A DNA stretch of 64,000 nt from Eledone cirrhosa. Lineage: Eukaryota. Below are positions 16,354-64,000 of the stretch, one piece after another. The notes beneath the pieces are model-generated. The model searched no databases. It worked only from the letters and a program-made list of their open reading frames with translations, and had not been told where the DNA came from. Location: NCBI GenBank assembly GCA_964016885.1, contig OZ024753.1, positions 37,510,001-37,574,000 of the forward strand, in the 5' to 3' direction. Positions within the stretch are counted from its first letter, which is position 1; each line of letters begins with the position of its first letter. A program made the translations under genes and the position numbers.

Positions 16354-16405
<52 letters not shown>

Positions 16406-16409
<4 letters not shown>

Positions 16410-16929
16410 AAAAAATAGAGGTGTAACACACAAGTTATTATATATTGGTAAACGGAATAGAAAATGCTGACAAATTGTTCACAGTTGAAAAATGGTTTAA
16501 TTAGGAATAAAAGAGTATTAGTGATTGTATGGGTTAGTATTCAGTTGTGGTTTTAAGTTTTTAAGTTTTTACCGGTTGCGCATTTCTAAATGCTTTTCAA
16601 AAATAATTTTGAGATAGAGTGTCCGTGCTGTTTGCTCTGATCTGATTAGTTTTGGGAATTCTACCTGTTTTTATGTTAAAAAAGTGGCTCCAGCGTTATT
16701 TTTGTGTTGCAAAAATGCTTGTGGTCAAAACAATTTTGATTGGTCGGTAGAGGTCATGTGAATGTAAAAAGTTGATTTTGCGCCAAGACTGTTTTTATGT
16801 TAAAAAAGTGGCTCCAGCAAAAATTATTGGTCAAAACAATTTTGATTGGTCGGTAGAGGTCATGTGGATAAAAAATTGGTTTTGCGCCAAGATTGAGAAA
16901 TGACTCTTTCACAACAAATGTGTGTGAGT

Positions 16930-17013
<84 letters not shown>

Positions 17014-17091
17014 TAGTAGTAGTAGTAGTAATAAGATGTTCGATGCTGCGACAATGGCCAGCAGCGATGTGTGTCAAATGGCTATTAAGAT

Positions 17092-17130
<39 letters not shown>

Positions 17131-17853
17131 AGTCTCTTTGTATGTTGATGTACGCGTGTGTATGTGTTTGTGTATATATATGTGTGTGTGTGTGTGTGTG
17201 TGGGTGGACCAGTATTTTTTTCCCCCTGGTAAAATGGTGTACATTATTCGATTTTTTCAGTAAAATCGGTTCTCTTAATAGAACATCAAAAATCTTAACA
17301 ATAAAAGGTGTGAAATGATATTCACTATATATATATATATACACACATACACATATTCACTACATATATATATATATATATATACATATATACATACATA
17401 TATATGCACATATATTTTTTTGTATTGCACCACATATAAACACAATGACACACGTAAACACACATGCTCTATGGTGCAATACAAAAAAATATATGTGCAT
17501 ATATATGTATGTATATATGTATATATATATATATATATATGTAGTGAATATGTGTATGTGTGTATATATATATATAGTGAATATCATTTCACACCTTTTA
17601 TTGTTAAGATTTTTGATGTTCTATTAAGAGAACCGATTTTACTGAAAAAATCGAATAATGTACACCATTTTACCAGGGGGAAAAAAATACTGGTCCACCC
17701 ACACACACACACACACACACATATATACACAAACACATACACACGCGTACATCAACATACAAAGAGACTTATACACACACACACACACACACACGCACTT
17801 CTCCGTATAAGACAAAAGCTGAAAAATATCTTTTGACCTTCGAATGACTCTGC

Positions 17854-17944
<91 letters not shown>

Positions 17945-18013
17945 ATCTTAATAGCCATTTGACACACATCGCTGCTGGCCATTGTCGCAGCATCGAACAC
18001 CTTATTACTACTA

Positions 18014-18102
<89 letters not shown>

Positions 18103-18579
18103 TATTTGTTGTGAAAGAGTCATTTCTCAATCTTGGCGCAAAACCAATTTTTTATCCACATGACCTCTACCGACCAATCAAAATTGTTTTGACCAATAAT
18201 TTTTGCTGGAGCCACTTTTTTAACATAAAAACAGTCTTGGCGCAAAATCAACTTTTTACATTCACATGACCTCTACCGACCAATCAAAATTGTTTTGACC
18301 ACAAGCATTTTTGCAACACAAAAATAACGCTGGAGCCACTTTTTTAACATAAAAACAGGTAGAATTCCCAAAACTAATCAGATCAGAGCAAACAGCACGG
18401 ACACTCTATCTCAAAATTATTTTTGAAAAGCATTTAGAAATGCGCAACCGGTAAAAACTTAAAAACTTAAAACCACAACTGAATACTAACCCATACAATC
18501 ACTAATACTCTTTTATTCCTAATTAAACCATTTTTCAACTGTGAACAATTTGTCAGCATTTTCTATTCCGTTTACCAAT
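16406..18579. mobile_element. ~2.2-kb palindromic PLE-type insertion (non-coding 3' region with microsatellites)
   Basis: ~1-kb near-identical arms around spacer 17433-17471. Only the left arm has the ~35-bp terminal tail. The right arm has an extra segment at ~17795-17855. Confidence 0.88.
18420..18456 (+). ncRNA. Hammerhead-like motif, U3-A8 core with GCAA in place of GAAA (also - strand at 16567-16603 and 46894-46930)
   Basis: TTT-TTGAAAA-GCATTT ag AAATGC-GCAA-CCGGTA^AAA. Identical in three places. Confidence 0.6.
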
Positions 18580-19290
18580 ATATATATATGTATATATATA
18601 TATATATGTGTGTGTGTGTTTGTGTGTGTATATATATGTATATATATATATATATATATTCATATATATATACATGAGTGCATACATACGCGAATACCTA
18701 CATATATACATATATACGAGCATTAGTGTCTGTTTGTGTATGTACTGCATTCAATTCCCATGTGTGTTTAGATGTTTTGATAGCCTTTAAGAAAGTTAAC
18801 AACTATGGTGCATTATAGAGCTGCAGATGTAAATAGTTGTCAAGCTGCGGCTGGAACTGCAGCTGAATGATATAATGTGGTGTTAAACATTCGTTTTACA
18901 CCTGCAATGTATCCAATACCTGCAAGTGAGGTGTTCTCTTCAGATGTTACTAATTTGCATCCGTTAAAAATATATGTCTTCTTCTGTCGATAAAATAAAG
19001 TACCAGTAATGCACTGGAGTATTTGCTGGCCTTGTGCCTAAAGTAGAAACAGTCATTGTTCTTTGTTATTGTTGTAGTTTTTGTCTCTCATTTCTACAAG
19101 AAGAAGAAGAAGAAGAAGAAGAAGAAGAAGAAGAAGAAGAAGAAGAAGAAGAAGAAGAAGAAGAAGAAGAAGAAGAAGAAGAACAACAACAACAACAACA
19201 ACAACAATAACAACAGACTATCTTTTATTGACTCAGTTTATAAAACACAATTAGGTGGCCAATTATTGGAGACAGTATAATATAGTTGTT

Positions 19291-46680: not shown

Positions 46681-46757
<77 letters not shown>

Positions 46758-46761
<4 letters not shown>

Positions 46762-47124
46762 TAAACGGAATAGAAAATGCTGACAAATTGTTCACAGTTG
46801 AAAAATGGTTTAATTAGGAATAAAAGAGTATTAGTGATTGTATGGGTTTGTATCAGTTTTGGTTGTATCAGTTGTGGTTTTAAGTTTTTAAGTTTTTACC
46901 GGTTGCGCATTTCTAAATGCTTTTCAAAAATAATTTTGAGATAGAGTGTCCGTGCTGTTTGCTCTGATCTTAAAAACTTAAAACCACAACTGAATACTAA
47001 CCCATACAATCACTAATACTCTTTTATTCCTAATTAAACCATTTTTCAACTGTGAACAATTTGTCAGCATTTTCTATTCCGTTTACCAATATATAATAAC
47101 TTGTGTGTTACACCTCTATTCTTT

Positions 47125-47128
<4 letters not shown>
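46758..47128. mobile_element. Short fold-back copy of the 16406-18579 family
   Basis: Minus arm 46758-46970, plus arm 46971-47128 with tail, (TA)n on both sides. Confidence 0.85.
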
Positions 47129-47208
<80 letters not shown>

Positions 47209-48301: not shown

Positions 48302-48356
48302 TATAAAATATTAAACAAATAATGAACAAACAATTCCTTATATTAAACAAAAAAAG

Positions 48357-48511
48357 TTCACTATTTAACGATCGTTTCTAGGGTATATATGTGTTATAAT
48401 TGGTATGCATATTTAACAGATCTATGTACAAAATTATACAAAATTATACAAATTATCAAGATTAAATATACATACCTAACTCATATATACGCCGTCTTCA
48501 GAAATAATGAA
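48357..48511 (-). ncRNA. Hammerhead ribozyme, inverted copy of 58039-58193
   Basis: Reverse complement of the 58039-58193 motif. Confidence 0.87.
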
Positions 48512-49276
48512 GTATATTTATTGATAATAACAACAATTCAAAATATCAGTTCAAAATTGACCAATGAAAACACAAAGGGTTAAAAAGCAGTTTGGTGTGT
48601 GTATATACATGTAAAACCCTACACACATTTTACAATAATGTGTGTATAATCTGTATGTGCATACTAAAAAGATGGATGCAAATAAAAAATTTCAAGGTTA
48701 ATATCTCTGTAAGCTTAATGCGCTGATAAGATACGCAATGATACTTATGGAGTCAAGCATATAAATATATTTTTTTCATACTCACACATATCAGTATAAT
48801 CACACATACATGTGCGTATATATATAAATATACACATAACCACGAACACACAAACACACACACTCCCCCACTCACATTTATATATGTGGATATAAAATCA
48901 TAAGCAAATAGAAATTAAGTCACTCACATAAACACACTGGTACACACATTTCAAGATCAAGATACAGAAATTAGGTGGGAGGGGGGGGGGTCAGTATTAG
49001 ACTGTCAGACCAGACAACCTTAATATAAATGTATCTATAAATTATGAAAAATAAAAAAATAAAAACAATAAAATATATTACATATAATATAATGTACATA
49101 CGCATACAGATATACATACACATACATACATGTACGCGCACATAGAGATATCTATACATACATACATACACACATACCTATACTGTCATACACACACATA
49201 CATTTACACGAACATACACATACACATATAAAAAGATATAAATACGGACACACACACGCGCAACACATACATACAT

Positions 49277-49325
<49 letters not shown>

Positions 49326-49434
49326 TATACACACACACGTAGACTCATATATATATACATACACATACATACATTTATACACAAGCATATATATCCCACA
49401 CTCATATCACCATAAAAACACATACAAACATCCA

Positions 49435-49493
<59 letters not shown>

Positions 49494-49708
49494 ACATACA
49501 CACACGTACACACATATGTATATATACATACACATATACACACATACACATATATATATCCACACACACACATAAAATACAGACATGCACATATATATAT
49601 ATATATATATATATATTTCATTACTCTTATATATACACATAGTATATATACATACACAACCTCACTTATACACATATACACATAAGTTATATTACAATAA
49701 TAATAAAG

Positions 49709-49747
<39 letters not shown>

Positions 49748-49890
49748 TATACACACATATACACATATACATACACACACATACACATACATACATACAT
49801 ACACATACATACATACACCTAAATATAAACATATATAAATACACACATACGAATAAAGACATATATTCACACATAGACACCTATATACAC

Positions 49891-49926
<36 letters not shown>

Positions 49927-50027
49927 CTATATACACACACATACACATACATACACATATATATATATATATATATATAAATACACATATACACACACGC
50001 ACACACATACAGACACACATACACACT

Positions 50028-50058
<31 letters not shown>

Positions 50059-51786
50059 GTGTATGTGAGTGTGCGCCAATACACATATATACATATACAT
50101 ACACACATACAAACACACACAAACTCATACATATGCATACGCACACACACACACACATATATCACATAGATACGAAGATAAACATATAAATAGAGAGACA
50201 TACAAATATATACAGAACCCATATACACATACATACAAATACGCATATACATATATATACATATATACACACATATATATTCCTATATACAAGCATACAC
50301 ATACACACACATATATACATATACATACACATATACATATCACACATTCACATACACGTACATATATAATACATATATATACATATATATACATATATAT
50401 GTATGTACAATCATATATACACACTCAATCTTACATTCATATTTACATGCTCATATATGTATTTTTATATTTAGAAATAAATACCAAAAAAACTATATAG
50501 ACACCCATCTACACATATATTCATACATATACACTTACAAAAACAGATGATAATAGTATGGGGGAAAGGGGGGGTTTGGAGAAGGGGATCAAAGTAAATA
50601 TATGTTTCAAGAAACATATAATATTTTCCATATCTTAATTCAATGTATGTTCTTACATATTTTCAGTGCTAGGAAATACGAAATCTATGCATCACAAAAT
50701 AAAAAAGTATACTATTAATCATATGTCAACTAAACCAAAGATAGTCAACATATTGATTTCCAAGGTGTAAATTAGTTAGGTTTATAATATTTGAGGCAGA
50801 ATTATGAAGTCAAACAGTAGTAGATTATTAATTACATTATAACTAAATTAAAGTTAATAACGTTATGGTATCAATATTAGGAGATGAATAGGGAAAAGAA
50901 ACCCAAATAAAAATAAAAATAAAATAAAGTATTACATCGGTAGTAGCATATAAATTATATGTTAACTAAGTTAAAAATTATATATTTATTTCAATAGTAT
51001 ATGTTAATTAGTATATGTTAATTAGGTATACAATACATAAAGCAGATATTGTATTTCATCAATAGCATAATATAATTATATGCAAATAAAAATCAAAATT
51101 AATACGCATACATATACATATACATACACATACACATACCTATACATATACATACACATATATATATATATATATATATACATATATATACACATACATA
51201 CATATATAGTCACATAAATATACATACAGATACACATACAACACACACATATACATATACATATAGATATACATATCTTTTTCAAAAAATTTGCACAGAA
51301 TATATTAACTAGGTATATATCCAAAAACACCTCCCATTCTATGATTACATGACATTCTGCAATTTGTCTGTACAATGATACTAATTTTAAGCAAATTAAA
51401 GTTAAAATTAAAGTTTTAGGTTGATTAAAGCTAAAACCAAATAATAAATATATTTCCAAAATGTATATTAATTAGGTCAATAATACTAAAAATTCTTTCT
51501 CCGTCATAGGATACATGATATTATTTTGTTATATTTTATCTGTAAAAGAATTATAATAAAAAAAATTATAATAAAAGGTTAAACTAAATTAAAAAATTAT
51601 AATAAAAGGTTAAAATAAGTTAAAATTAATCTATAAATTAAATTACTGAATATATATTAGTAATATTTAAAGGTTTTTCAAAATTAATGATTACATAATA
51701 TTTTCTCATCTGTAATAAAATATTAATTAAATTAAATTTATAGGTTAACTAACATTTAAATTAAATTAAATTCTAGAATAATGTTA

Positions 51787-53384
51787 TTAATTAGGTTTAT
51801 AATATTTAAATGTTTTTTTTAGTTTATGATTACACGATATAATTAATTCCTGTCTTTTATTTAATAAGATATCCCTAGACTTCATTATTTCAAATAGTTC
51901 TTGGGAACATAATCTACATTCCTTTCTATTATTTTGATAAGGGGTGGCTCTTTTGAGCACACTCCAGGTCAAATCATATTTTATATTTTTATTTTTATAA
52001 CTATTGATTTTTTCTGCTAGAGATGTTGTATTAGCCAGTGCGGCATTTTTAAAGCTATGTTTGTGGGTATTATATCTTGTCTTAAAATTGTTAGAGGTAG
52101 CTCCTATATATGAGCAAATAGAATCTTTAGTTTTAACATTACATTTATAGACTATGTTGTTAACAAGACAATTCCCTTTTAATGGGCAGTTTGTTTTGTT
52201 TCTACAGTTACATCCTTTCGTTAATTCTGTATTTGAGGAGATATTATTGTTAATTTGATGTACTGGTGGTATACTTATAGTTTTCTTACATTTATATGCA
52301 TTATATGCACTTATATTTTGTTTTATGTTATTTGTTGTAGAATATGAGAATTTAACTGTAGACCTATTTAAGATTTGATGGTATTTGTGGTTTGGCGGGA
52401 AGTTTTTCTCAAGGATATAAAAAAATTTTTTAGCAATATTATCCTTAACTTGTAAATTAAAAGGAGCATTATACCAAGTAACTCGTCTATTACGGTTTCT
52501 ATGTTGTTTATTATTTTTATTATTTTTATATGTTGTATCATGATTTTTACTAGGAGGAATAATGTTAATGATCTCACCACAACTATTTTTAGTTATATTT
52601 GTAGATTTAGGTGTTTTATCTTTTTTATTAGGAGTTTTATTATTAATATTTATTATAGTCTTATGATGAGTAGTTTTTTGAGGGTTACTATACTTTATAT
52701 TAAAAGATTTAGTATTTTGGGGTATACTGTGGGTGGCATTTAGGTGTGTACTTTTCATTTGGTGTTTGTTGGTAATATTATGCTGTATGCTTTCAGTATT
52801 TTTAGTAGAAGGTATATACTCTAATCTATTTTTGTGGCCACTTCTATCTAGAGCTTCATTATAAAAGGTCGCATTTTTATCAAATACATCTTGGTTAGAA
52901 GAAAGGTTAGAAATTCTAAGTGATATATTGTATGCAAGGTTTTTAAGGATAGATTTAGGGTGATTAGATTGTGAGTGTATGTAATGTAAGTTTTGGTTAG
53001 GTTTATGGTAAGGTTGGTATATACCCGTAGCTAAATCTAAAGTTATATCTAGGAAATTTACTACTTTACTTGTTTTTTCAAAAGTAATATTAAGATTATA
53101 ATAGTCTTTAAGGAAAGTTCTAATATGCTTTTTGTTTTTTTCGATTTCTGAAAGGCTAAGGTTGTTAGAAAGAAGAAGACAGTCATCACGATATAAACCA
53201 CCTTTGAGGTGGGGAAAAGAGGCATTTATGTTGAAAAGGAGAAAGAGGCCCACAAGATCAGTAATTTGGGCAGAATCGCTTGAACCCATAGTAATATCAA
53301 AAAGATTACTATAAGTGTTTCTGGTCCAGTATTCATTCTGAAATTCAATAAGTGTTTGTCTAGCATGTATAATAATGTTAATGT
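51787..53384 (-). pseudogene. 5'-truncated copy of the PLE ORF (RT motifs B-E, thumb, GIY-YIG)
   Basis: Same protein as 58537-60978 from INIIIHARQ onward, with one visible change (DDCLLL vs DDCLFL). The N-terminus in the ORF track comes from junction filler. Confidence 0.93.
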
Positions 53385-53418
53385 TAACATGTCTAGCATG
53401 TATAATAATAATAATGTT

Positions 53419-54768
53419 AACAAAAAGCATATTAGAACTTTCCTTAAAGACTATTATAATCTTAATATTACTTTTGAAAAAACAAGTAAAGTAGTAAATT
53501 TCCTAGATATAACTTTAGATTTAGCTACGGGTATATACCAACCTTACCATAAACCTAACCAAAACTTACATTACATACACTCACAATCTAATCACCCTAA
53601 ATCTATCCTTAAAAACCTTGCATACAATATATCACTTAGAATTTCTAACCTTTCTTCTAACCAAGATGTATTTGATAAAAATGCGACCTTTTATAATGAA
53701 GCTCTAGATAGAAGTGGCCACAAAAATAGATTAGAGTATATACCTTCTACTAAAAATACTGAAAGCATACAGCATAATATTACCAACAAACACCAAATGA
53801 AAAGTACACACCTAAATGCCACCCACAGTATACCCCAAAATACTAAATCTTTTAATATAAAGTATAGTAACCCTCAAAAAACTACTCATCATAAGACTAT
53901 AATAAATATTAATAATAAAACTCCTAATAAAAAAGATAAAACACCTAAATCTACAAATATAACTAAAAATAGTTGTGGTGAGATCATTAACATTATTCCT
54001 CCTAGTAAAAATCATGATACAACATATAAAAATAATAAAAATAATAAACAACATAGAAACCGTAATAGACGAGTTACTTGGTATAATGCTCCTTTTAATT
54101 TACAAGTTAAGGATAATATTGCTAAAAAATTTTTTTATATCCTTGAGAAAAACTTCCCGCCAAACCACAAATACCATCAAATCTTAAATAGGTCTACAGT
54201 TAAATTCTCATATTCTACAACAAATAACATAAAACAAAATATAAGTGCATATAATGCATATAAATGTAAGAAAACTATAAGTATACCACCAGTACATCAA
54301 ATTAACAATAATATCTCCTCAAATACAGAATTAACGAAAGGATGTAACTGTAGAAACAAAACAAACTGCCCATTAAAAGGGAATTGTCTTGTTAACAACA
54401 TAGTCTATAAATGTAATGTTAAAACTAAAGATTCTATTTGCTCATATATAGGAGCTACCTCTAACAATTTTAAGACAAGATATAATACCCACAAACATAG
54501 CTTTAAAAATGCCGCACTGGCTAATACAACATCTCTAGCAGAAAAAATCAATAGTTATAAAAATAAAAATATAAAATATGATTTGACCTGGAGTGTGCTC
54601 AAAAGAGCCACCCCTTATCAAAATAATAGAAAGGAATGTAGATTATGTTCCCAAGAACTATTTGAAATAATGAAGTCTAGGGATATCTTATTAAATAAAA
54701 GACAGGAATTAATTATATCGTGTAATCATAAACTAAAAAAAACATTTAAATATTATAAACCTAATTAA
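53419..54768 (+). pseudogene. 5'-truncated copy of the PLE ORF (after YRDD to end)
   Basis: Matches 59629-60978 from NKKHIRTFLK and lacks the catalytic motifs A-C. Confidence 0.93.
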
Positions 54769-56624
54769 TAACATTATTCTAGAATTTAATTTAATTTAAA
54801 TGTTAGTTAACCTATAAATTTAATTTAATTAATATTTTATTACAGATGAGAAAATATTATGTAATCATTAATTTTGAAAAACCTTTAAATATTACTAATA
54901 TATATTCAGTAATTTAATTTATAGATTAATTTTAACTTATTTTAACCTTTTATTATAATTTTTTAATTTAGTTTAACCTTTTATTATAATTTTTTTTATT
55001 ATAATTCTTTTACAGATAAAATATAACAAAATAATATCATGTATCCTATGACGGAGAAAGAATTTTTAGTATTATTGACCTAATTAATATACATTTTGGA
55101 AATATATTTATTATTTGGTTTTAGCTTTAATCAACCTAAAACTTTAATTTTAACTTTAATTTGCTTAAAATTAGTATCATTGTACAGACAAATTGCAGAA
55201 TGTCATGTAATCATAGAATGGGAGGTGTTTTTGGATATATACCTAGTTAATATATTCTGTGCAAATTTTTTGAAAAAGATATGTATATCTATATGTATAT
55301 GTATATGTGTGTGTTGTATGTGTATCTGTATGTATATTTATGTGACTATATATGTATGTATGTGTATATATATGTATATATATATATATATATATATGTG
55401 TATGTATATGTATAGGTATGTGTATGTGTATGTATATGTATATGTATGCGTATTAATTTTGATTTTTATTTGCATATAATTATATTATGCTATTGATGAA
55501 ATACAATATCTGCTTTATGTATTGTATACCTAATTAACATATACTAATTAACATATACTATTGAAATAAATATATAATTTTTAACTTAGTTAACATATAA
55601 TTTATATGCTACTACCGATGTAATACTTTATTTTATTTTTATTTTTATTTGGGTTTCTTTTCCCTATTCATCTCCTAATATTGATACCATAACGTTATTA
55701 ACTTTAATTTAGTTATAATGTAATTAATAATCTACTACTGTTTGACTTCATAATTCTGCCTCAAATATTATAAACCTAACTAATTTACACCTTGGAAATC
55801 AATATGTTGACTATCTTTGGTTTAGTTGACATATGATTAATAGTATACTTTTTTATTTTGTGATGCATAGATTTCGTATTTCCTAGCACTGAAAATATGT
55901 AAGAACATACATTGAATTAAGATATGGAAAATATTATATGTTTCTTGAAACATATATTTACTTTGATCCCCTTCTCCAAACCCCCCCTTTCCCCCATACT
56001 ATTATCATCTGTTTTTGTAAGTGTATATGTATGAATATATGTGTAGATGGGTGTCTATATAGTTTTTTTGGTATTTATTTCTAAATATAAAAATACATAT
56101 ATGAGCATGTAAATATGAATGTAAGATTGAGTGTGTATATATGATTGTACATACATATATATGTATATATATGTATATATATGTATTATATATGTACGTG
56201 TATGTGAATGTGTGATATGTATATGTGTATGTATATGTATATATGTGTGTGTATGTGTATGCTTGTATATAGGAATATATATGTGTGTATATATGTATAT
56301 ATATGTATATGCGTATTTGTATGTATGTGTATATGGGTTCTGTATATATTTGTATGTCTCTCTATTTATATGTTTATCTTCGTATCTATGTGATATATGT
56401 GTGTGTGTGTGTGCGTATGCATATGTATGAGTTTGTGTGTGTTTGTATGTGTGTATGTATATGTATATATGTGTATTGGCGCACACTCACATACACATAT
56501 ATATATATATATATATATATGTGTGAGTGTGTATGTGTGTCTGTATGTGTGTGCGTGTGTGTATATGTGTATTTATATATATATATATATATATGTGTAT
56601 GTATGTGTATGTGTGTGTATATAG

Positions 56625-56660
<36 letters not shown>

Positions 56661-56803
56661 GTGTATATAGGTGTCTATGTGTGAATATATGTCTTTATTC
56701 GTATGTGTGTATTTATATATGTTTATATTTAGGTGTATGTATGTATGTGTATGTATGTATGTATGTGTATGTGTGTGTATGTATATGTGTATATGTGTGT
56801 ATA

Positions 56804-56842
<39 letters not shown>

Positions 56843-57057
56843 CTTTATTATTATTGTAATATAACTTATGTGTATATGTGTATAAGTGAGGTTGTGTATG
56901 TATATATACTATGTGTATATATAAGAGTAATGAAATATATATATATATATATATATATATGTGCATGTCTGTATTTTATGTGTGTGTGTGGATATATATA
57001 TGTGTATGTGTGTATATGTGTATGTATATATACATATGTGTGTACGTGTGTGTATGT

Positions 57058-57108
<51 letters not shown>

Positions 57109-57217
57109 TGGATGTTTGTATGTGTTTTTATGGTGATATGAGTGTGGGATATATATGCTTGTGTATAAATGTATGTATGTGTATGTATATATATATGAGT
57201 CTACGTGTGTGTGTATA

Positions 57218-57266
<49 letters not shown>

Positions 57267-58038
57267 ATGTATGTATGTGTTGCGCGTGTGTGTGTCCGTA
57301 TTTATATCTTTTTATATGTGTATGTGTATGTTCGTGTAAATGTATGTGTGTGTATGACAGTATAGGTATGTGTGTATGTATGTATGTATAGATATCTCTA
57401 TGTGCGCGTACATGTATGTATGTGTATGTATATCTGTATGCGTATGTACATTATATTATATGTAATATATTTTATTGTTTTTATTTTTTTATTTTTCATA
57501 ATTTATAGATACATTTATATTAAGGTTGTCTGGTCTGACAGTCTAATACTGACCCCTCCCCCCCCCCCCTCCCACCTAATTTCTGTATCTTGATCTTGAA
57601 ATGTGTGTACCAGTGTGTTTATGTGAGTGACTTAATTTCTATTTGCTTATGATTTTATATCCACATATATAAATGTGAGTGGGGGAGTGTGTGTGTTTGT
57701 GTGTTCGTGGTTATGTGTATATTTATATATATACGCACATGTATGTGTGATTATACTGATATGTGTGAGTATGAAAAAAATATATTTATATGCTTGACTC
57801 CATAAGTATCATTGCGTATCTTATCAGCGCATTAAGCTTACAGAGATATTAACCTTGAAATTTTTTATTTGCATCCATCTTTTTAGTATGCACATACAGA
57901 TTATACACACATTATTGTAAAATGTGTGTAGGGTTTTACATGTATATACACACACCAAACTGCTTTTTAACCCTTTGTGTTTTCATTGGTCAATTTTGAA
58001 CTGATATTTTGAATTGTTGTTATTATCAATAAATATAC

Positions 58039-58193
58039 TTCATTATTTCTGAAGACGGCGTATATATGAGTTAGGTATGTATATTTAATCTTGATAATTT
58101 GTATAATTTTGTATAATTTTGTACATAGATCTGTTAAATATGCATACCAATTATAACACATATATACCCTAGAAACGATCGTTAAATAGTGAA
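58039..58193 (+). ncRNA. Type I hammerhead ribozyme with extended stem II (PLE pseudo-LTR)
   Basis: Stem I TTCATTATTT(58039-48)/AAATAGTGAA(58184-93). Core CTGAAGA 58049-55. Stem II 58056-58171 (GTATATATG/CATATATAC; GGTATGTATATTTAA/TTAAATATGCATACC). GAAA 58172-75, palindromic stem III ACGATCGT, predicted GUU cleavage after 58183. Confidence 0.88.
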
Positions 58194-58536
58194 CTTTTTT
58201 TGTTTAATATAAGGAATTGTTTGTTCATTATTTGTTTAATATTTTATCTTGACTCTGCATACCGTTTATCTTTCACCGAAATTGGATTTTCATTACATCT
58301 CTTCTTTCCATGATATCCGGAATACATTGAGTTCTTCATACGGATTGGACACTACCGTAAACTCTTGGTAGATTTATCTACATAATTTTGCTCCTATTTT
58401 CACGGAAATATTCGTATTTTTGTACTGTATGTGTGTATTAATTTTATATTTATGTATAAACATATATATATGTATGATTTTGTAAACCCATATACATTTA
58501 GTTGAGCTCTTTCAATTGTCCATCATCCATATCACA

Positions 58537-60978
58537 ATGGAAAAACAATATTTAGGAACCTCCTTAAAAAACATACCAATACCTTCTAAGGACGACTTCT
58601 TACTCCTTATGATTCAGAAAACTAATAATTTTATCAGAAGGGTTAGATGGAGAGCCTACCACTTTGATAGGAAATCTAAACAAGCAGATCGGAAATATAT
58701 GTATGATTTCAACACTTACAAGAATCCACCACACAACTTTTTACTTGAAGACTTCGAGAAAGACCTTTTTAATTTAATTAAACACCTAAAATTTAAAAAG
58801 TATAAATCCGTCTTTCAAAAGGACCTTGATTCTACCCTATTGGACCTAAAAAAGTCTAAAAAAATCCATGTCCACTCGGACAAAACTGGTAACTTGTATC
58901 ATATGGATATTGAACATTATAATGAGTTCATATATAAAGAACTCAGAAAAAATTATAAAAAATCTAATAATGCGTCACTCACCAACATCAACAACAAAAC
59001 ACACAACATAGTAAAAAAACTAAATATTGAAGATAGAACTGAACCTTTGGCATTGAGAAGTCCACACTTCAACCTGAAAGATCACAAATCTAACTTTAAC
59101 TCTAATCCTTCTATTAGACTTATATGTCCCTCCAAATCAGATATTGGAATAATTAGCAAAAAAATTTTAGATAGAGTCATCCCACAAATAAGAAAATACG
59201 TTATTTTACCACTCTGGGAAAACACCTCCCAGGTAATTAATTGGTTTAAAAATATTAGGTGTAAATCTTCTGCTTCTTTCCTACAGTTTGATATAGATAA
59301 TTATTATTCTTCTATATCACCCATACTCCTGAACAAAGCATTAATATTTGCTAAAAATAGATCTAGTTTAACTTCGGATGACATTAACATTATTATACAT
59401 GCTAGACAAACACTTATTGAATTTCAGAATGAATACTGGACCAGAAACACTTATAGTAATCTTTTTGATATTACTATGGGTTCAAGCGATTCTGCCCAAA
59501 TTACTGATCTTGTGGGCCTCTTTCTCCTTTTCAACATAAATGCCTCTTTTCCCCACCTCAAAGGTGGTTTATATCGTGATGACTGTCTTTTTCTTTCTAA
59601 CAACCTTAGCCTTTCAGAAATCGAAAAAAACAAAAAGCATATTAGAACTTTCCTTAAAGACTATTATAATCTTAATATTACTTTTGAAAAAACAAGTAAA
59701 GTAGTAAATTTCCTAGATATAACTTTAGATTTAGCTACGGGTATATACCAACCTTACCATAAACCTAACCAAAACTTACATTACATACACTCACAATCTA
59801 ATCACCCTAAATCTATCCTTAAAAACCTTGCATACAATATATCACTTAGAATTTCTAACCTTTCTTCTAACCAAGATGTATTTGATAAAAATGCGACCTT
59901 TTATAATGAAGCTCTAGATAGAAGTGGCCACAAAAATAGATTAGAGTATATACCTTCTACTAAAAATACTGAAAGCATACAGCATAATATTACCAACAAA
60001 CACCAAATGAAAAGTACACACCTAAATGCCACCCACAGTATACCCCAAAATACTAAATCTTTTAATATAAAGTATAGTAACCCTCAAAAAACTACTCATC
60101 ATAAGACTATAATAAATATTAATAATAAAACTCCTAATAAAAAAGATAAAACACCTAAATCTACAAATATAACTAAAAATAGTTGTGGTGAGATCATTAA
60201 CATTATTCCTCCTAGTAAAAATCATGATACAACATATAAAAATAATAAAAATAATAAACAACATAGAAACCGTAATAGACGAGTTACTTGGTATAATGCT
60301 CCTTTTAATTTACAAGTTAAGGATAATATTGCTAAAAAATTTTTTTATATCCTTGAGAAAAACTTCCCGCCAAACCACAAATACCATCAAATCTTAAATA
60401 GGTCTACAGTTAAATTCTCATATTCTACAACAAATAACATAAAACAAAATATAAGTGCATATAATGCATATAAATGTAAGAAAACTATAAGTATACCACC
60501 AGTACATCAAATTAACAATAATATCTCCTCAAATACAGAATTAACGAAAGGATGTAACTGTAGAAACAAAACAAACTGCCCATTAAAAGGGAATTGTCTT
60601 GTTAACAACATAGTCTATAAATGTAATGTTAAAACTAAAGATTCTATTTGCTCATATATAGGAGCTACCTCTAACAATTTTAAGACAAGATATAATACCC
60701 ACAAACATAGCTTTAAAAATGCCGCACTGGCTAATACAACATCTCTAGCAGAAAAAATCAATAGTTATAAAAATAAAAATATAAAATATGATTTGACCTG
60801 GAGTGTGCTCAAAAGAGCCACCCCTTATCAAAATAATAGAAAGGAATGTAGATTATGTTCCCAAGAACTATTTGAAATAATGAAGTCTAGGGATATCTTA
60901 TTAAATAAAAGACAGGAATTAATTATATCGTGTAATCATAAACTAAAAAAAACATTTAAATATTATAAACCTAATTAA
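58537..60978 (+). CDS. Penelope-like element polyprotein: reverse transcriptase + C-terminal GIY-YIG endonuclease (813 aa from first ATG)
   Basis: Uninterrupted ORF. RT motifs: SDKTGN (DKG-like), QFDIDNYY (A), MGSSDSAQITDLVG (B), YRDD (C), FLDITL (E), and a YIHSQSNHP thumb. Then a CNCR-x4-CPLKGNC Cys cluster, IVY...YIGAT, FKTRYNTH, CRLCSQE and LLNKR of the PLE GIY-YIG. The ORF track starts at TTG 58516; the first ATG is 58537. Confidence 0.96.
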   Translation: MEKQYLGTSLKNIPIPSKDDFLLLMIQKTNNFIRRVRWRAYHFDRKSKQADRKYMYDFNTYKNPPHNFLLEDFEKDLFNLIKHLKFKKYKSVFQKDLDSTLLDLKKSKKIHVHSDKTGNLYHMDIEHYNEFIYKELRKNYKKSNNASLTNINNKTHNIVKKLNIEDRTEPLALRSPHFNLKDHKSNFNSNPSIRLICPSKSDIGIISKKILDRVIPQIRKYVILPLWENTSQVINWFKNIRCKSSASFLQFDIDNYYSSISPILLNKALIFAKNRSSLTSDDINIIIHARQTLIEFQNEYWTRNTYSNLFDITMGSSDSAQITDLVGLFLLFNINASFPHLKGGLYRDDCLFLSNNLSLSEIEKNKKHIRTFLKDYYNLNITFEKTSKVVNFLDITLDLATGIYQPYHKPNQNLHYIHSQSNHPKSILKNLAYNISLRISNLSSNQDVFDKNATFYNEALDRSGHKNRLEYIPSTKNTESIQHNITNKHQMKSTHLNATHSIPQNTKSFNIKYSNPQKTTHHKTIININNKTPNKKDKTPKSTNITKNSCGEIINIIPPSKNHDTTYKNNKNNKQHRNRNRRVTWYNAPFNLQVKDNIAKKFFYILEKNFPPNHKYHQILNRSTVKFSYSTTNNIKQNISAYNAYKCKKTISIPPVHQINNNISSNTELTKGCNCRNKTNCPLKGNCLVNNIVYKCNVKTKDSICSYIGATSNNFKTRYNTHKHSFKNAALANTTSLAEKINSYKNKNIKYDLTWSVLKRATPYQNNRKECRLCSQELFEIMKSRDILLNKRQELIISCNHKLKKTFKYYKPN

Positions 60979-62834
60979 TAACATTATTCTAGAATTTAAT
61001 TTAATTTAAATGTTAGTTAACCTATAAATTTAATTTAATTAATATTTTATTACAGATGAGAAAATATTATGTAATCATTAATTTTGAAAAACCTTTAAAT
61101 ATTACTAATATATATTCAGTAATTTAATTTATAGATTAATTTTAACTTATTTTAACCTTTTATTATAATTTTTTAATTTAGTTTAACCTTTTATTATAAT
61201 TTTTTTTATTATAATTCTTTTACAGATAAAATATAACAAAATAATATCATGTATCCTATGACGGAGAAAGAATTTTTAGTATTATTGACCTAATTAATAT
61301 ACATTTTGGAAATATATTTATTATTTGGTTTTAGCTTTAATCAACCTAAAACTTTAATTTTAACTTTAATTTGCTTAAAATTAGTATCATTGTACAGACA
61401 AATTGCAGAATGTCATGTAATCATAGAATGGGAGGTGTTTTTGGATATATACCTAGTTAATATATTCTGTGCAAATTTTTTGAAAAAGATATGTATATCT
61501 ATATGTATATGTATATGTGTGTGTTGTATGTGTATCTGTATGTATATTTATGTGACTATATATGTATGTATGTGTATATATATGTATATATATATATATA
61601 TATATATGTGTATGTATATGTATAGGTATGTGTATGTGTATGTATATGTATATGTATGCGTATTAATTTTGATTTTTATTTGCATATAATTATATTATGC
61701 TATTGATGAAATACAATATCTGCTTTATGTATTGTATACCTAATTAACATATACTAATTAACATATACTATTGAAATAAATATATAATTTTTAACTTAGT
61801 TAACATATAATTTATATGCTACTACCGATGTAATACTTTATTTTATTTTTATTTTTATTTGGGTTTCTTTTCCCTATTCATCTCCTAATATTGATACCAT
61901 AACGTTATTAACTTTAATTTAGTTATAATGTAATTAATAATCTACTACTGTTTGACTTCATAATTCTGCCTCAAATATTATAAACCTAACTAATTTACAC
62001 CTTGGAAATCAATATGTTGACTATCTTTGGTTTAGTTGACATATGATTAATAGTATACTTTTTTATTTTGTGATGCATAGATTTCGTATTTCCTAGCACT
62101 GAAAATATGTAAGAACATACATTGAATTAAGATATGGAAAATATTATATGTTTCTTGAAACATATATTTACTTTGATCCCCTTCTCCAAACCCCCCCTTT
62201 CCCCCATACTATTATCATCTGTTTTTGTAAGTGTATATGTATGAATATATGTGTAGATGGGTGTCTATATAGTTTTTTTGGTATTTATTTCTAAATATAA
62301 AAATACATATATGAGCATGTAAATATGAATGTAAGATTGAGTGTGTATATATGATTGTACATACATATATATGTATATATATGTATATATATGTATTATA
62401 TATGTACGTGTATGTGAATGTGTGATATGTATATGTGTATGTATATGTATATATGTGTGTGTATGTGTATGCTTGTATATAGGAATATATATGTGTGTAT
62501 ATATGTATATATATGTATATGCGTATTTGTATGTATGTGTATATGGGTTCTGTATATATTTGTATGTCTCTCTATTTATATGTTTATCTTCGTATCTATG
62601 TGATATATGTGTGTGTGTGTGTGCGTATGCATATGTATGAGTTTGTGTGTGTTTGTATGTGTGTATGTATATGTATATATGTGTATTGGCGCACACTCAC
62701 ATACACATATATATATATATATATATATATGTGTGAGTGTGTATGTGTGTCTGTATGTGTGTGCGTGTGTGTATATGTGTATTTATATATATATATATAT
62801 ATATGTGTATGTATGTGTATGTGTGTGTATATAG

Positions 62835-62870
<36 letters not shown>

Positions 62871-63013
62871 GTGTATATAGGTGTCTATGTGTGAATATAT
62901 GTCTTTATTCGTATGTGTGTATTTATATATGTTTATATTTAGGTGTATGTATGTATGTGTATGTATGTATGTATGTGTATGTGTGTGTATGTATATGTGT
63001 ATATGTGTGTATA

Positions 63014-63052
<39 letters not shown>

Positions 63053-63267
63053 CTTTATTATTATTGTAATATAACTTATGTGTATATGTGTATAAGTGAG
63101 GTTGTGTATGTATATATACTATGTGTATATATAAGAGTAATGAAATATATATATATATATATATATATATGTGCATGTCTGTATTTTATGTGTGTGTGTG
63201 GATATATATATGTGTATGTGTGTATATGTGTATGTATATATACATATGTGTGTACGTGTGTGTATGT

Positions 63268-63322
<55 letters not shown>

Positions 63323-63431
63323 TGGATGTTTGTATGTGTTTTTATGGTGATATGAGTGTGGGATATATATGCTTGTGTATAAATGTATGTATGTGTATGT
63401 ATATATATATGAGTCTACGTGTGTGTGTATA

Positions 63432-63480
<49 letters not shown>

Positions 63481-64000
63481 ATGTATGTATGTGTTGCGCG
63501 TGTGTGTGTCCGTATTTATATCTTTTTATATGTGTATGTGTATGTTCGTGTAAATGTATGTGTGTGTATGACAGTATAGGTATGTGTGTATGTATGTATG
63601 TATAGATATCTCTATGTGCGTGTACATGTATGTATGTGTATGTATATCTGTATGCGTATGTACATTATATTATATGTAATATATTTTATTGTTTTTATTT
63701 TTTTATTTTTCATAATTTATAGATACATTTATATTAAGGTTGTCTGGTCTGACAGTCTAATACTGACCCCTCCCCCCCCCCCCTCCCACCTAATTTCTGT
63801 ATCTTGATCTTGAAATGTGTGTACCAGTGTGTTTATGTGAGTGACTTAATTTCTATTTGCTTATGATTTTATATCCACATATATAAATGTGAGTGGGGGA
63901 GTGTGTGTGTTTGTGTGTTCGTGGTTATGTGTATATTTATATATATACGCACATGTATGTGTGATTATACTGATATGTGTGAGTATGAAAAAAATATATT

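What the first reader, a model, noticed from the sequence alone, without database searches (positions are those of the whole stretch)
46894..46980. GCAA-variant hammerhead whose predicted cut site matches an insertion breakpoint
This family has GCAA where hammerheads have invariant GAAA (A13C), identical at 16567, 18420 and 46894. In the short copy the sense arm starts at 46971 (TAAAAACTT), within 2 nt of the predicted GUA^AAAA cleavage. That is expected if reverse transcription ran off a self-cleaved 5' end. It is suggestive that a doubly non-canonical core is active, but it rests on one junction.
Basis: partly seen in the sequence, partly recalled or inferred. Interest (0 to 1): 0.7.

Follow-up and report, generated by a model that had tools for sequence, protein, structure and literature searches.

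The report
Mutant hammerhead with fossil cut marks
About 6,500 copies of a Penelope-type jumping gene in this genome carry a self-cutting RNA motif with C in place of a normally invariant A; the breakpoint first flagged is not the cut site, but rare copies fused to U6 and other RNA ends exactly at the predicted cut suggest the motif likely still gets cut, at a low rate, in living cells.

Summary
The motif is a minimal type I hammerhead (U3:A8 core, A13C) in the pseudo-LTR of a Neptune-type Penelope-like element. GCAA is the family state: 6,494 of 6,542 genomic matches. The flagged junction is misread. The sense arm starts in the second of two 8-nt repeats, 4-6 nt after the predicted cut, with a 2-nt microhomology. 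The partner arm runs 74 nt upstream of the cut, so its template was uncut. Most 5' ends pile up at -76 to -72, a likely transcription start (476 palindromes, about 680 TA-abutting starts), not at the cut. Other evidence supports low-level cleavage. Two independent U6 snRNA 3' ends, an 18S-like piece and three other foreign ends join exactly at the cut. 14 of 46 junctions there are foreign-RNA or sense-ORF joins, against 0 of 42 in two control windows. U6 joins GAAA sister families at their own cuts too. Cis activity of C13 is untested; trans rescue by a GAAA core is not excluded.

The parts
46894..46930 (-). Minimal type I hammerhead motif: stem I 5' strand 46930-46928, core UUGAAAA (U3:A8) 46927-46921, stem II 46920-46907, G12 46906, C13 46905, A14-A15.1 46904-46903, palindrome CCGG 46902-46899, U16.1-A17 46898-46897, predicted cut between 46897 and 46896, stem I 3' strand 46896-46894
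   Evidence: sequence; same layout as GAAA families
46752..46970 (-). Untailed arm of the short head-to-head insertion: pLTR from -74 (just inside the main 5' end) to the first 3' end (+131) in a (TA)n tract; carries the uncut motif
46971..47129 (+). Tailed arm: starts in the second 8-nt repeat (+4 to +6 after the cut) and ends at the second 3' end (about +165 to +172); tail 47096-47129
46969..46970 (.). 2-nt microhomology (CT) shared by both arms at the junction
16405..18584 (.). Long head-to-head insertion of the same element, both arms 5'-truncated inside the 3' UTR (about 1.1 kb each); the left arm is tailed
16567..16603 (-). Second copy of the GCAA hammerhead motif
18420..18456 (+). Third copy of the GCAA hammerhead motif; predicted cut after 18453
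18378..18412 (+). Main 5'-end region (TCAGATC, -76 to -70) and a predicted 5' hairpin (AGAU-C-AGAG with CUCU-AUCU), with a covarying counterpart in the GAAA sister family

Best explanation
The motif is a U3:A8, A13C minimal hammerhead in the pseudo-LTR of a Neptune-type Penelope-like retrotransposon, and it likely still cuts its RNA at the predicted site in a small share of transcripts, while most copies come from uncut RNA that likely starts about 75 nt upstream. Shown: element anatomy (4,805-bp unit, RT and GIY-YIG domains), two fixed 3' ends in (TA)n, 5' ends at -76 to -72, and rare joins exactly at the cut. Inferred: transcription starts at CAGAT; both nicked target strands prime cDNA, one at each 3' start, and the two cDNAs are joined head to head by microhomology. 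A competing hairpin is predicted to keep the core off in most molecules. A few per cent fold as CCGG-paired dimers, probably with help from the element's protein, and are cut. The 5'-OH end is then sometimes ligated, probably by RtcB, to a 2',3'-cyclic-phosphate end (U6, rRNA pieces, a break in the element's own RNA) before reverse transcription. The window junction is a microhomology join 4-6 nt after the cut and cannot by itself tell a cut template from an uncut one.
For: GCAA in 6,494 of 6,542 matches and in 7 of 8 older-subfamily copies that were not selected for GAAA. 18,554 U3:A8 + GAAA + CCGG motifs in sister families, with different but paired stems I and II, so the fold is a real hammerhead. 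RT and GIY-YIG by Pfam. U6 3' end joined at position 0 in two independent loci on two contigs (L176, L234), plus an 18S-like piece (L160, E 2e-4), a GC-rich piece (L259) and an unidentified RNA twice (L241, L256). These arms differ from the nearest GCAA copy at 0-2 sites and from the older short-loop subfamily at 8 or more. Foreign-RNA or sense-ORF joins: 14 of 46 junction events in the cut window, 0 of 42 in two control windows, one with the same local sequence 8 nt downstream (Fisher p 5e-5; foreign RNA alone 6 of 46, p 0.03). In an unbiased U6 screen, the 12 events that I could place exactly on a hammerhead-bearing repeat join at that repeat's cut, while another repeat takes U6 at four or more different points. 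Palindrome centres: 17 at the first TTAA after the cut, 2 at the next TTAA, 4 at CCGG before the cut (p 7e-4 and 7e-3). One near-full-length GCAA copy starts at -2 to 0 (L112). RtcB ligation needs a 5'-OH (PMC6789731, passages). A13 changes lower activity 10-100 fold rather than more than 100 fold (PMC4075628, citing earlier work). A PLE hammerhead is protein-assisted and uncut RNA is the main template (PMC11167929).
Against: No cleavage assay and no RNA data. Only two U6 events, one of them found by a pattern aimed at the cut. Raw junction numbers show no peak at the cut against the same context 8 nt downstream (103 hits, 46 junction events among those read, against 168 hits). Five of the 8 sense-ORF joins have 1-3 nt of microhomology and one has an extra base. 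The hammerhead-like monomer fold is +0.4 kcal/mol against -9.9 for a fold that sequesters U3-A6, whereas the GAAA sister folds stems I and II in its minimum-energy structure; stem I is only three U-A pairs. Dimeric hammerheads cut the partner's site, so a GAAA core from another RNA could do the cutting. A test for conservation of the motif between subfamilies was not significant. Only 54 of the 168 arms in the +5 to +8 control were read.
Confidence: 0.62

Rival explanations
1. The C13 core is dead, and the site is cut in trans by a GAAA core from another RNA (the abundant sister family or rare GAAA copies) paired through the shared CCGG palindrome.
For: Minimal PLE hammerheads work as dimers (PMC4209133). 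All these families share CCGG. There are 18,554 GAAA motifs and 35 close relatives with GAAA.
Against: The sister's stem I strand gives only 2 pairs with this family's AAAA, against 3 for its own. Close GAAA copies are sporadic: in 7 of 7 short-loop loci with a partner arm of their own the partner has GCAA. U6 joins per copy (2 per 6,500) are no rarer than in the main GAAA sister (3 events, roughly 15,000 copies estimated); the numbers are small.
Confidence: 0.13
2. The motif is an inactive relic; joins at position 0 come from a protein nuclease, breakage at the end of a hairpin, or A-tract and TA microhomology.
For: A13 is part of the strict core (PMC3088659). The predicted fold hides the core. 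More than 6,000 copies spread from uncut RNA, and cleavage is not needed for PLE insertion in vitro (PMC11167929). Junctions are at least as common 8 nt downstream.
Against: Foreign RNA ends join at exactly position 0 with four A's and no microhomology. None was seen at the identical UA-AAAAC context 8 nt on. The same signature marks the GUA and GUC cuts of other hammerhead families.
Confidence: 0.19
3. One reading: self-cleavage sets the element's 5' end and the window junction is the run-off point.
For: The junction lies in the small secondary cluster just downstream of the cut, and trimming by a few bases is common at the -75 end too.
Against: The junction is at +4 to +6 with microhomology; its partner arm came from uncut RNA; main 5' ends are at -76 to -72.
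Confidence: 0.06

Closest known systems
Minimal type I hammerheads of metazoan Penelope-like elements, U3-A8 variant of Schistosoma mansoni Cercyon (Cervera and de la Pena 2014, PMC4209133; parts 1-2 of 4 read)
   Same: In the pLTR; short stem I; G10.1-C11.1 pair; palindromic stem III for dimer folding; U3-A8 covariation; many single or opposite-strand copies 100-700 bp apart
   Different: Adds A13C, fixed in about 6,500 near-identical copies; no unpaired base between positions 9 and 10.1; stem I only 3 pairs; genomic evidence of cutting
Poseidon PAc of Anolis (Frangieh et al. 2024, PMC11167929; parts 1-2 of 4 read)
   Same: Two adjacent internal RT starts giving the tail; AT-rich targets; both strands primed; uncut RNA as the main template; protein-assisted hammerhead
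   Different: PAc has a C3-G8 core and one ORF, and its authors found no RNA-seq reads ending at the cut; here a variant core, two overlapping ORFs and rare genomic joins at the cut
U6/LINE-1 chimeras made by RtcB ligation (Moldovan et al. 2019, PMC6789731; passages read)
   Same: U6 3' end with about 5 T's joined without microhomology to a retrotransposon RNA that needs a 5'-OH
   Different: L1 joins fall at variable sites; here joins fall on the predicted ribozyme cut
Natural hammerhead core variants (Perreault et al. 2011, PMC3088659; section 8 and passages read)
   Same: U3-A8, A6C, U13a insertion and U15.1-A16.1 variants keep some activity
   Different: A13C is not named in the text that I read; figure contents and supplements were not seen

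Membership tests
Minimal type I hammerhead of PLEs | Core boxes CUGANGA (or U3-A8) and GAAA, then UH | tested here: not met
   U3-A8, G12, A14, A15.1, U16.1 and A17 are present, but position 13 is C in 6,494 of 6,542
Minimal type I hammerhead of PLEs | Stem II closed by G10.1-C11.1, with covariation among families | tested here: met
   GCAUU/AAUGC here; GCAG/CUGC, GAUG/CAUC and GAUGG/CCAUC in sisters
Minimal type I hammerhead of PLEs | Short stem I and palindromic stem III for dimer folding | tested here: met
   UUU/AAA (sister CCUU/AAGG) and CCGG; dimer helix about -8 to -10 kcal/mol. Stem I is shorter than the 4-5 bp described
Minimal type I hammerhead of PLEs | Located in a pLTR of an RT/GIY-YIG element | tested here: met
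   Tandem unit of 4,805 bp with the motif in both pLTRs; RVT_1 and GIY-YIG
Minimal type I hammerhead of PLEs | Site-specific self-cleavage leaving a 5'-OH | not testable with these tools
   Indirect support only, from ligation chimeras
EN+ Penelope-like element | pLTRs, inverted 5'-truncated copy, 30-40-bp tail at one end | tested here: met
   3' ends at +131 (94 of 177 arms) or +172 (69 of 177); exactly one tailed arm in 63 of 63 head-to-head pairs
Neptune clade | CX2-5CxxC motif between RT and GIY-YIG, and (TA)n targets (PMC8557442) | tested here: met
   CDRPNCGIC before the endonuclease; (TA)n flanks. The motif is shared with Nematis
Neptune clade | Placement in an RT phylogeny | not tested
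   No reference PLE RTs were fetched
RtcB-type U6 chimera | U6 3' end with a short T run joined without microhomology | tested here: met
   L176 and L234; Rfam U6 match E 1.7e-4, below the gathering score because the piece is short
RtcB-type U6 chimera | Ligation at RNA level, dependent on RtcB | not testable with these tools
   Inferred from PMC6789731

The most novel reading that the evidence does not exclude
A natural hammerhead with C at the 'invariant' position 13, on top of U3:A8 and a 3-bp stem I, cuts its own RNA in vivo about as often as its GAAA sisters because the element's protein or the dimer compensates; position 13 is then not invariant in PLE ribozymes, and GAAA-based searches miss whole high-copy families.
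Probability: 0.4. Interest if true: 0.72.

Novelty: new variant of a known kind. Interest (0 to 1): 0.52.

Why it matters
The role and even the in vivo activity of PLE hammerheads are open questions. This family gives a natural core mutant at very high copy number beside GAAA sisters in one genome, and the ligation chimeras act as a fossil read-out of cutting. Together they suggest that cleavage is rare, not needed for copying, and tolerant of a change thought to cripple the core. That makes the protein-assistance and dimer ideas directly testable with one base as the variable, and it says that search descriptors fixed on GAAA undercount these ribozymes.

Tried and rejected
Rfam scan of the window listed no hammerhead among the 150 best of 346 matches, which were microsatellite noise. 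A DNA search of the genome returned nothing because common words are skipped; patterns were used instead. Sequencing runs: no RNA holder listed. Contigs of four runs showed no other letter at position 13 above 5%, but they add nothing on expression or ends. The idea that a GAAA subfamily is the direct ancestor was dropped: the 25 short-loop GAAA copies were selected by my search, their partner arms carry GCAA, and copies not selected for GAAA are GCAA. A test for lower divergence of the motif between subfamilies was not significant and was distorted by gap placement and by that selection. A second hammerhead or a splice acceptor at -75/-72 was considered: I saw no core upstream by eye, copies often keep the CAG, and no U6 join was seen there. 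A cap-derived extra G is not common at that end, so 'transcription start' rests on position and on the motif shared with the sister family. L355 was dropped from the hammerhead tally because its repeat seems to take U6 at several points. The partners of L372, L374, L378, L382, L392, L409 and L414 could not be placed. The RNAs joined in L241, L256 and L259 were not identified by Rfam. Literature: hammerhead + A13C + GCAA and hammerhead + U6 snRNA + Penelope + chimera found nothing relevant; PMC9901934 and PMC12192606 passages gave no A13 data. Lunse et al. 2017 on PLE hammerhead variants, Nelson and Uhlenbeck 2008 and Brill et al. 2024 are not held and may report position-13 variants.

Full report
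Positions are relative to the predicted cut (0 = first base after GUA) unless they are window coordinates.

1. Observation. The three window copies carry the same motif: stem I UUU, core UUGAAAA, stem II GCAUU/AAUGC, GCAA, CCGG, UA, then AAA. The genome (3.0 Gb) has 6,542 exact matches to stem II-GNAA-CCGG and none to the reversed control. Only 48 lack C at position 13: 11 A, 11 G, 26 T by my count of the 48 listed rows. A is no commoner than G, as expected for scattered mutation. The breakpoint claim does not hold. The cut is followed by two 8-nt repeats. The sense arm at 46971 has one repeat followed by TAAAACC, so it begins in the second, at +4 to +6, sharing CT with the other arm. The other arm of this insertion starts at -74 and contains the whole motif.

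2. The element. A tandem locus (L109) gives a 4,805-bp unit with the motif in both pLTRs. ORF2 (784 aa in L097) matches RVT_1 and GIY-YIG; ORF1 (455 aa) matches no Pfam family. A CX4CxxC motif before the endonuclease and (TA)n targets fit the Neptune/Nematis type (PMC8557442, passages); no RT tree was made. Of 177 arms, 94 end at +131 and 69 at +172, and 63 of 63 head-to-head pairs have exactly one long-ended arm. This matches the two RT starts and two-strand priming shown for PAc (PMC11167929, parts 1-2 of 4).

3. The motif is a hammerhead by descent. A pattern for U3:A8 + GAAA + CCGG finds 18,554 matches against 16 for the control. These families differ in stem II and stem I but keep them paired. 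U3-A8 is in print for PLE hammerheads (PMC4209133, parts 1-2; PMC3088659, section 8). C13 is old in this lineage: an older short-loop subfamily has GCAA in 7 of 8 copies not selected for GAAA, and its 25 GAAA copies look sporadic.

4. Where 5' ends fall. In 100 arms anchored at about +42 to +66 (the first 100 of 6,128 matches), starts were: 40 beyond -325, 11 at -324 to -86, 33 at -85 to -64, 6 at -63 to -11, 3 at -10 to +10, 7 later. Genome-wide, 476 perfect palindromes centre on GATC at -73 to -70. 342 minus-strand matches have a TA run directly before a start at -76 to -72; plus-strand matches are counted several times, so I estimate about 680 in all. Only 8 TA-abutting starts were among the 74 arms read in the cut window. 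The main GAAA sister also has copies that start at a CAGAT about 73 nt before its cut. So in both families the main template is uncut and begins upstream, most simply at a transcription start (inference).

5. A minor class at the cut. A pattern for arms that lack GG at -4/-3 gave 103 hits, 100 listed. I read all 57 listed rows that were not CTTA and 17 of the 43 CTTA rows; most CTTA rows read were repeat expansions. The 74 arms gave 46 junction events by my classification: 24 to an antisense partner arm, 8 to (TA)n-type flank, 6 to a foreign sequence and 8 to a sense position inside the element's own ORFs. The six foreign joins are all exactly at 0: U6 3' ends (L176, L234), an 18S-like piece (L160), a GC-rich piece (L259, unidentified, rRNA-like by eye) and one unidentified RNA twice (L241, L256). 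Of the 8 ORF joins, 2 are at 0 without microhomology, 5 are compatible with 0 with 1-3 shared bases, and 1 has an extra base. Controls: at +21 to +23, 22 hits, all read, 13 junction events; at +5 to +8, the same local sequence, 168 hits, 100 listed, 54 arms read (the first 30, then 20 regions picked mostly for unusual flanks), 29 events. Neither control had a recognised foreign-RNA or sense-ORF join: 14 of 46 against 0 of 42, p 5e-5; foreign only, p 0.03. Against a simple peak: total junctions are at least as many at +5 to +8 as at the cut. For a cut end: palindromes centre on the first TTAA after the cut 17 times, on the next TTAA twice and on CCGG before the cut 4 times, as GATC just inside the -75 end does on a larger scale. 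The chimeric arms belong to the young GCAA group.

6. U6 as a reporter. The U6 3'-end pattern has 137 matches; 114 were listed and 79 loci fetched. Left out were a tandem U6 array, most rows of one recurring partner class and two (TA)n rows; some fetched rows are chance matches without further U6 sequence. Twelve events could be placed exactly on a repeat with a hammerhead core, and all 12 join at its predicted cut: this family 1 (L379, the same locus as L234), the main sister 3, a third U3:A8 family 2, other GUC or GUA families 6; a thirteenth (L380) fits approximately. Another repeat takes U6 at four or more points. In the sister's cut-window set (139 hits, 30 read) the same signature appears: an 18S piece (recognised from recall), the same unidentified RNA and a sense-ORF join. 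RtcB joins U6 only to a 5'-OH end (PMC6789731, passages), the end that hammerhead cleavage leaves. U6 events per copy are of the same order in the GCAA and GAAA families, on very small numbers.

7. Mechanism. Most transcripts likely start at -75 and stay uncut; a hairpin that hides U3-A6 is predicted for this family. Twin priming from +131 and +172 and microhomology joining give the palindromes. A few per cent are likely cut, as dimers and probably with protein help, and some cut ends are ligated before copying. A13 substitutions are reported to lower activity 10-100 fold (PMC4075628, part 1 of 2, citing earlier work), which is compatible with weak cutting. Because a dimer's core cuts the partner's site, trans rescue by a GAAA RNA remains possible.

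8. Novelty. The element type, U3:A8, the tail and the inverted arms are known (also PMC3846280 and PMC6765202, passages; bioRxiv 10.64898/2026.07.22.740005, part 1 of 5). I found no A13C hammerhead and no U6-PLE cut chimera in print, but the paper most likely to list PLE core variants was not available, and no supplements were read. Earlier notes of this scan report U6 at PLE cuts in other genomes, an A6C variant with rRNA fusions, and twin-primed palindromes of other families in this genome; I saw them after reaching these results. The distinct contribution here is a fixed A13C core with fossil evidence of cutting, and the correction of the flagged junction.

Noticed in passing
L354, L367, L376, L377, L386, L388, L389, L394, L405, L411, L412 (G000, several contigs): U6 snRNA 3' ends join exactly at the predicted cut of several other hammerhead-bearing repeat families, after GUA or GUC.
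   Followed up: partly
L109:4733-4745 (-), also L097, L091, L094: ORF1 and the RT ORF overlap, with a conserved T TTT TTA heptamer in the ORF1 frame (9 of 9 rows, some redundant): a candidate -1 frameshift. No strong structure is predicted downstream. A frameshifted ORF1 is mentioned for some PLEs in PMC8557442.
   Followed up: partly
window 42319 (+) and 39829 (-): Hammerhead motifs of two GAAA sister families (U3:A8 core, CCGG palindrome) lie in the same window.
   Followed up: partly
window 48303-63784: Large nested inverted repeats (arms up to 3.7 kb, 98%) with RT-like open frames at 58486-60975 (+, 830 aa), 53284-54765 (+) and 51790-53502 (-); by eye another Penelope-type family. My regex found no minimal hammerhead there.
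   Followed up: no
L241, L256, L299/L300: The same unidentified RNA end (...GCGTCTCAACCT) is joined at the cut site of both the GCAA family and the GAAA sister; it may be an abundant RNA with a cyclic-phosphate end.
   Followed up: partly
L353, L361, L363, L365, L370 and similar rows: A recurring class of U6 3' ends followed, after a short variable spacer, by one SINE-like sequence beginning AAGGGCGGTGCCCC.
   Followed up: no
G000:C1:265152480, C2:30665829, C3:314815018, C28:69874600: Four short palindromes carry the same rare position-13 change in both arms, while eight other pairs are discordant; this bears on whether both arms copy one RNA or are homogenised later.
   Followed up: partly
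window 18378-18412 and sister copies L205-L232: Both families have copies that start at CAGAT and can form a 5' hairpin with a one-base bulge and covarying pairs, 73-75 nt upstream of the cut.
   Followed up: partly
G000:C19:31778868-31807657: Tandem array of U6-like ends spaced about 1.8 kb apart, probably the U6 gene cluster.
   Followed up: no
window 46850-46880 (-): The untailed arm of the short copy has a private duplication of about 14 nt that its partner arm lacks.
   Followed up: no
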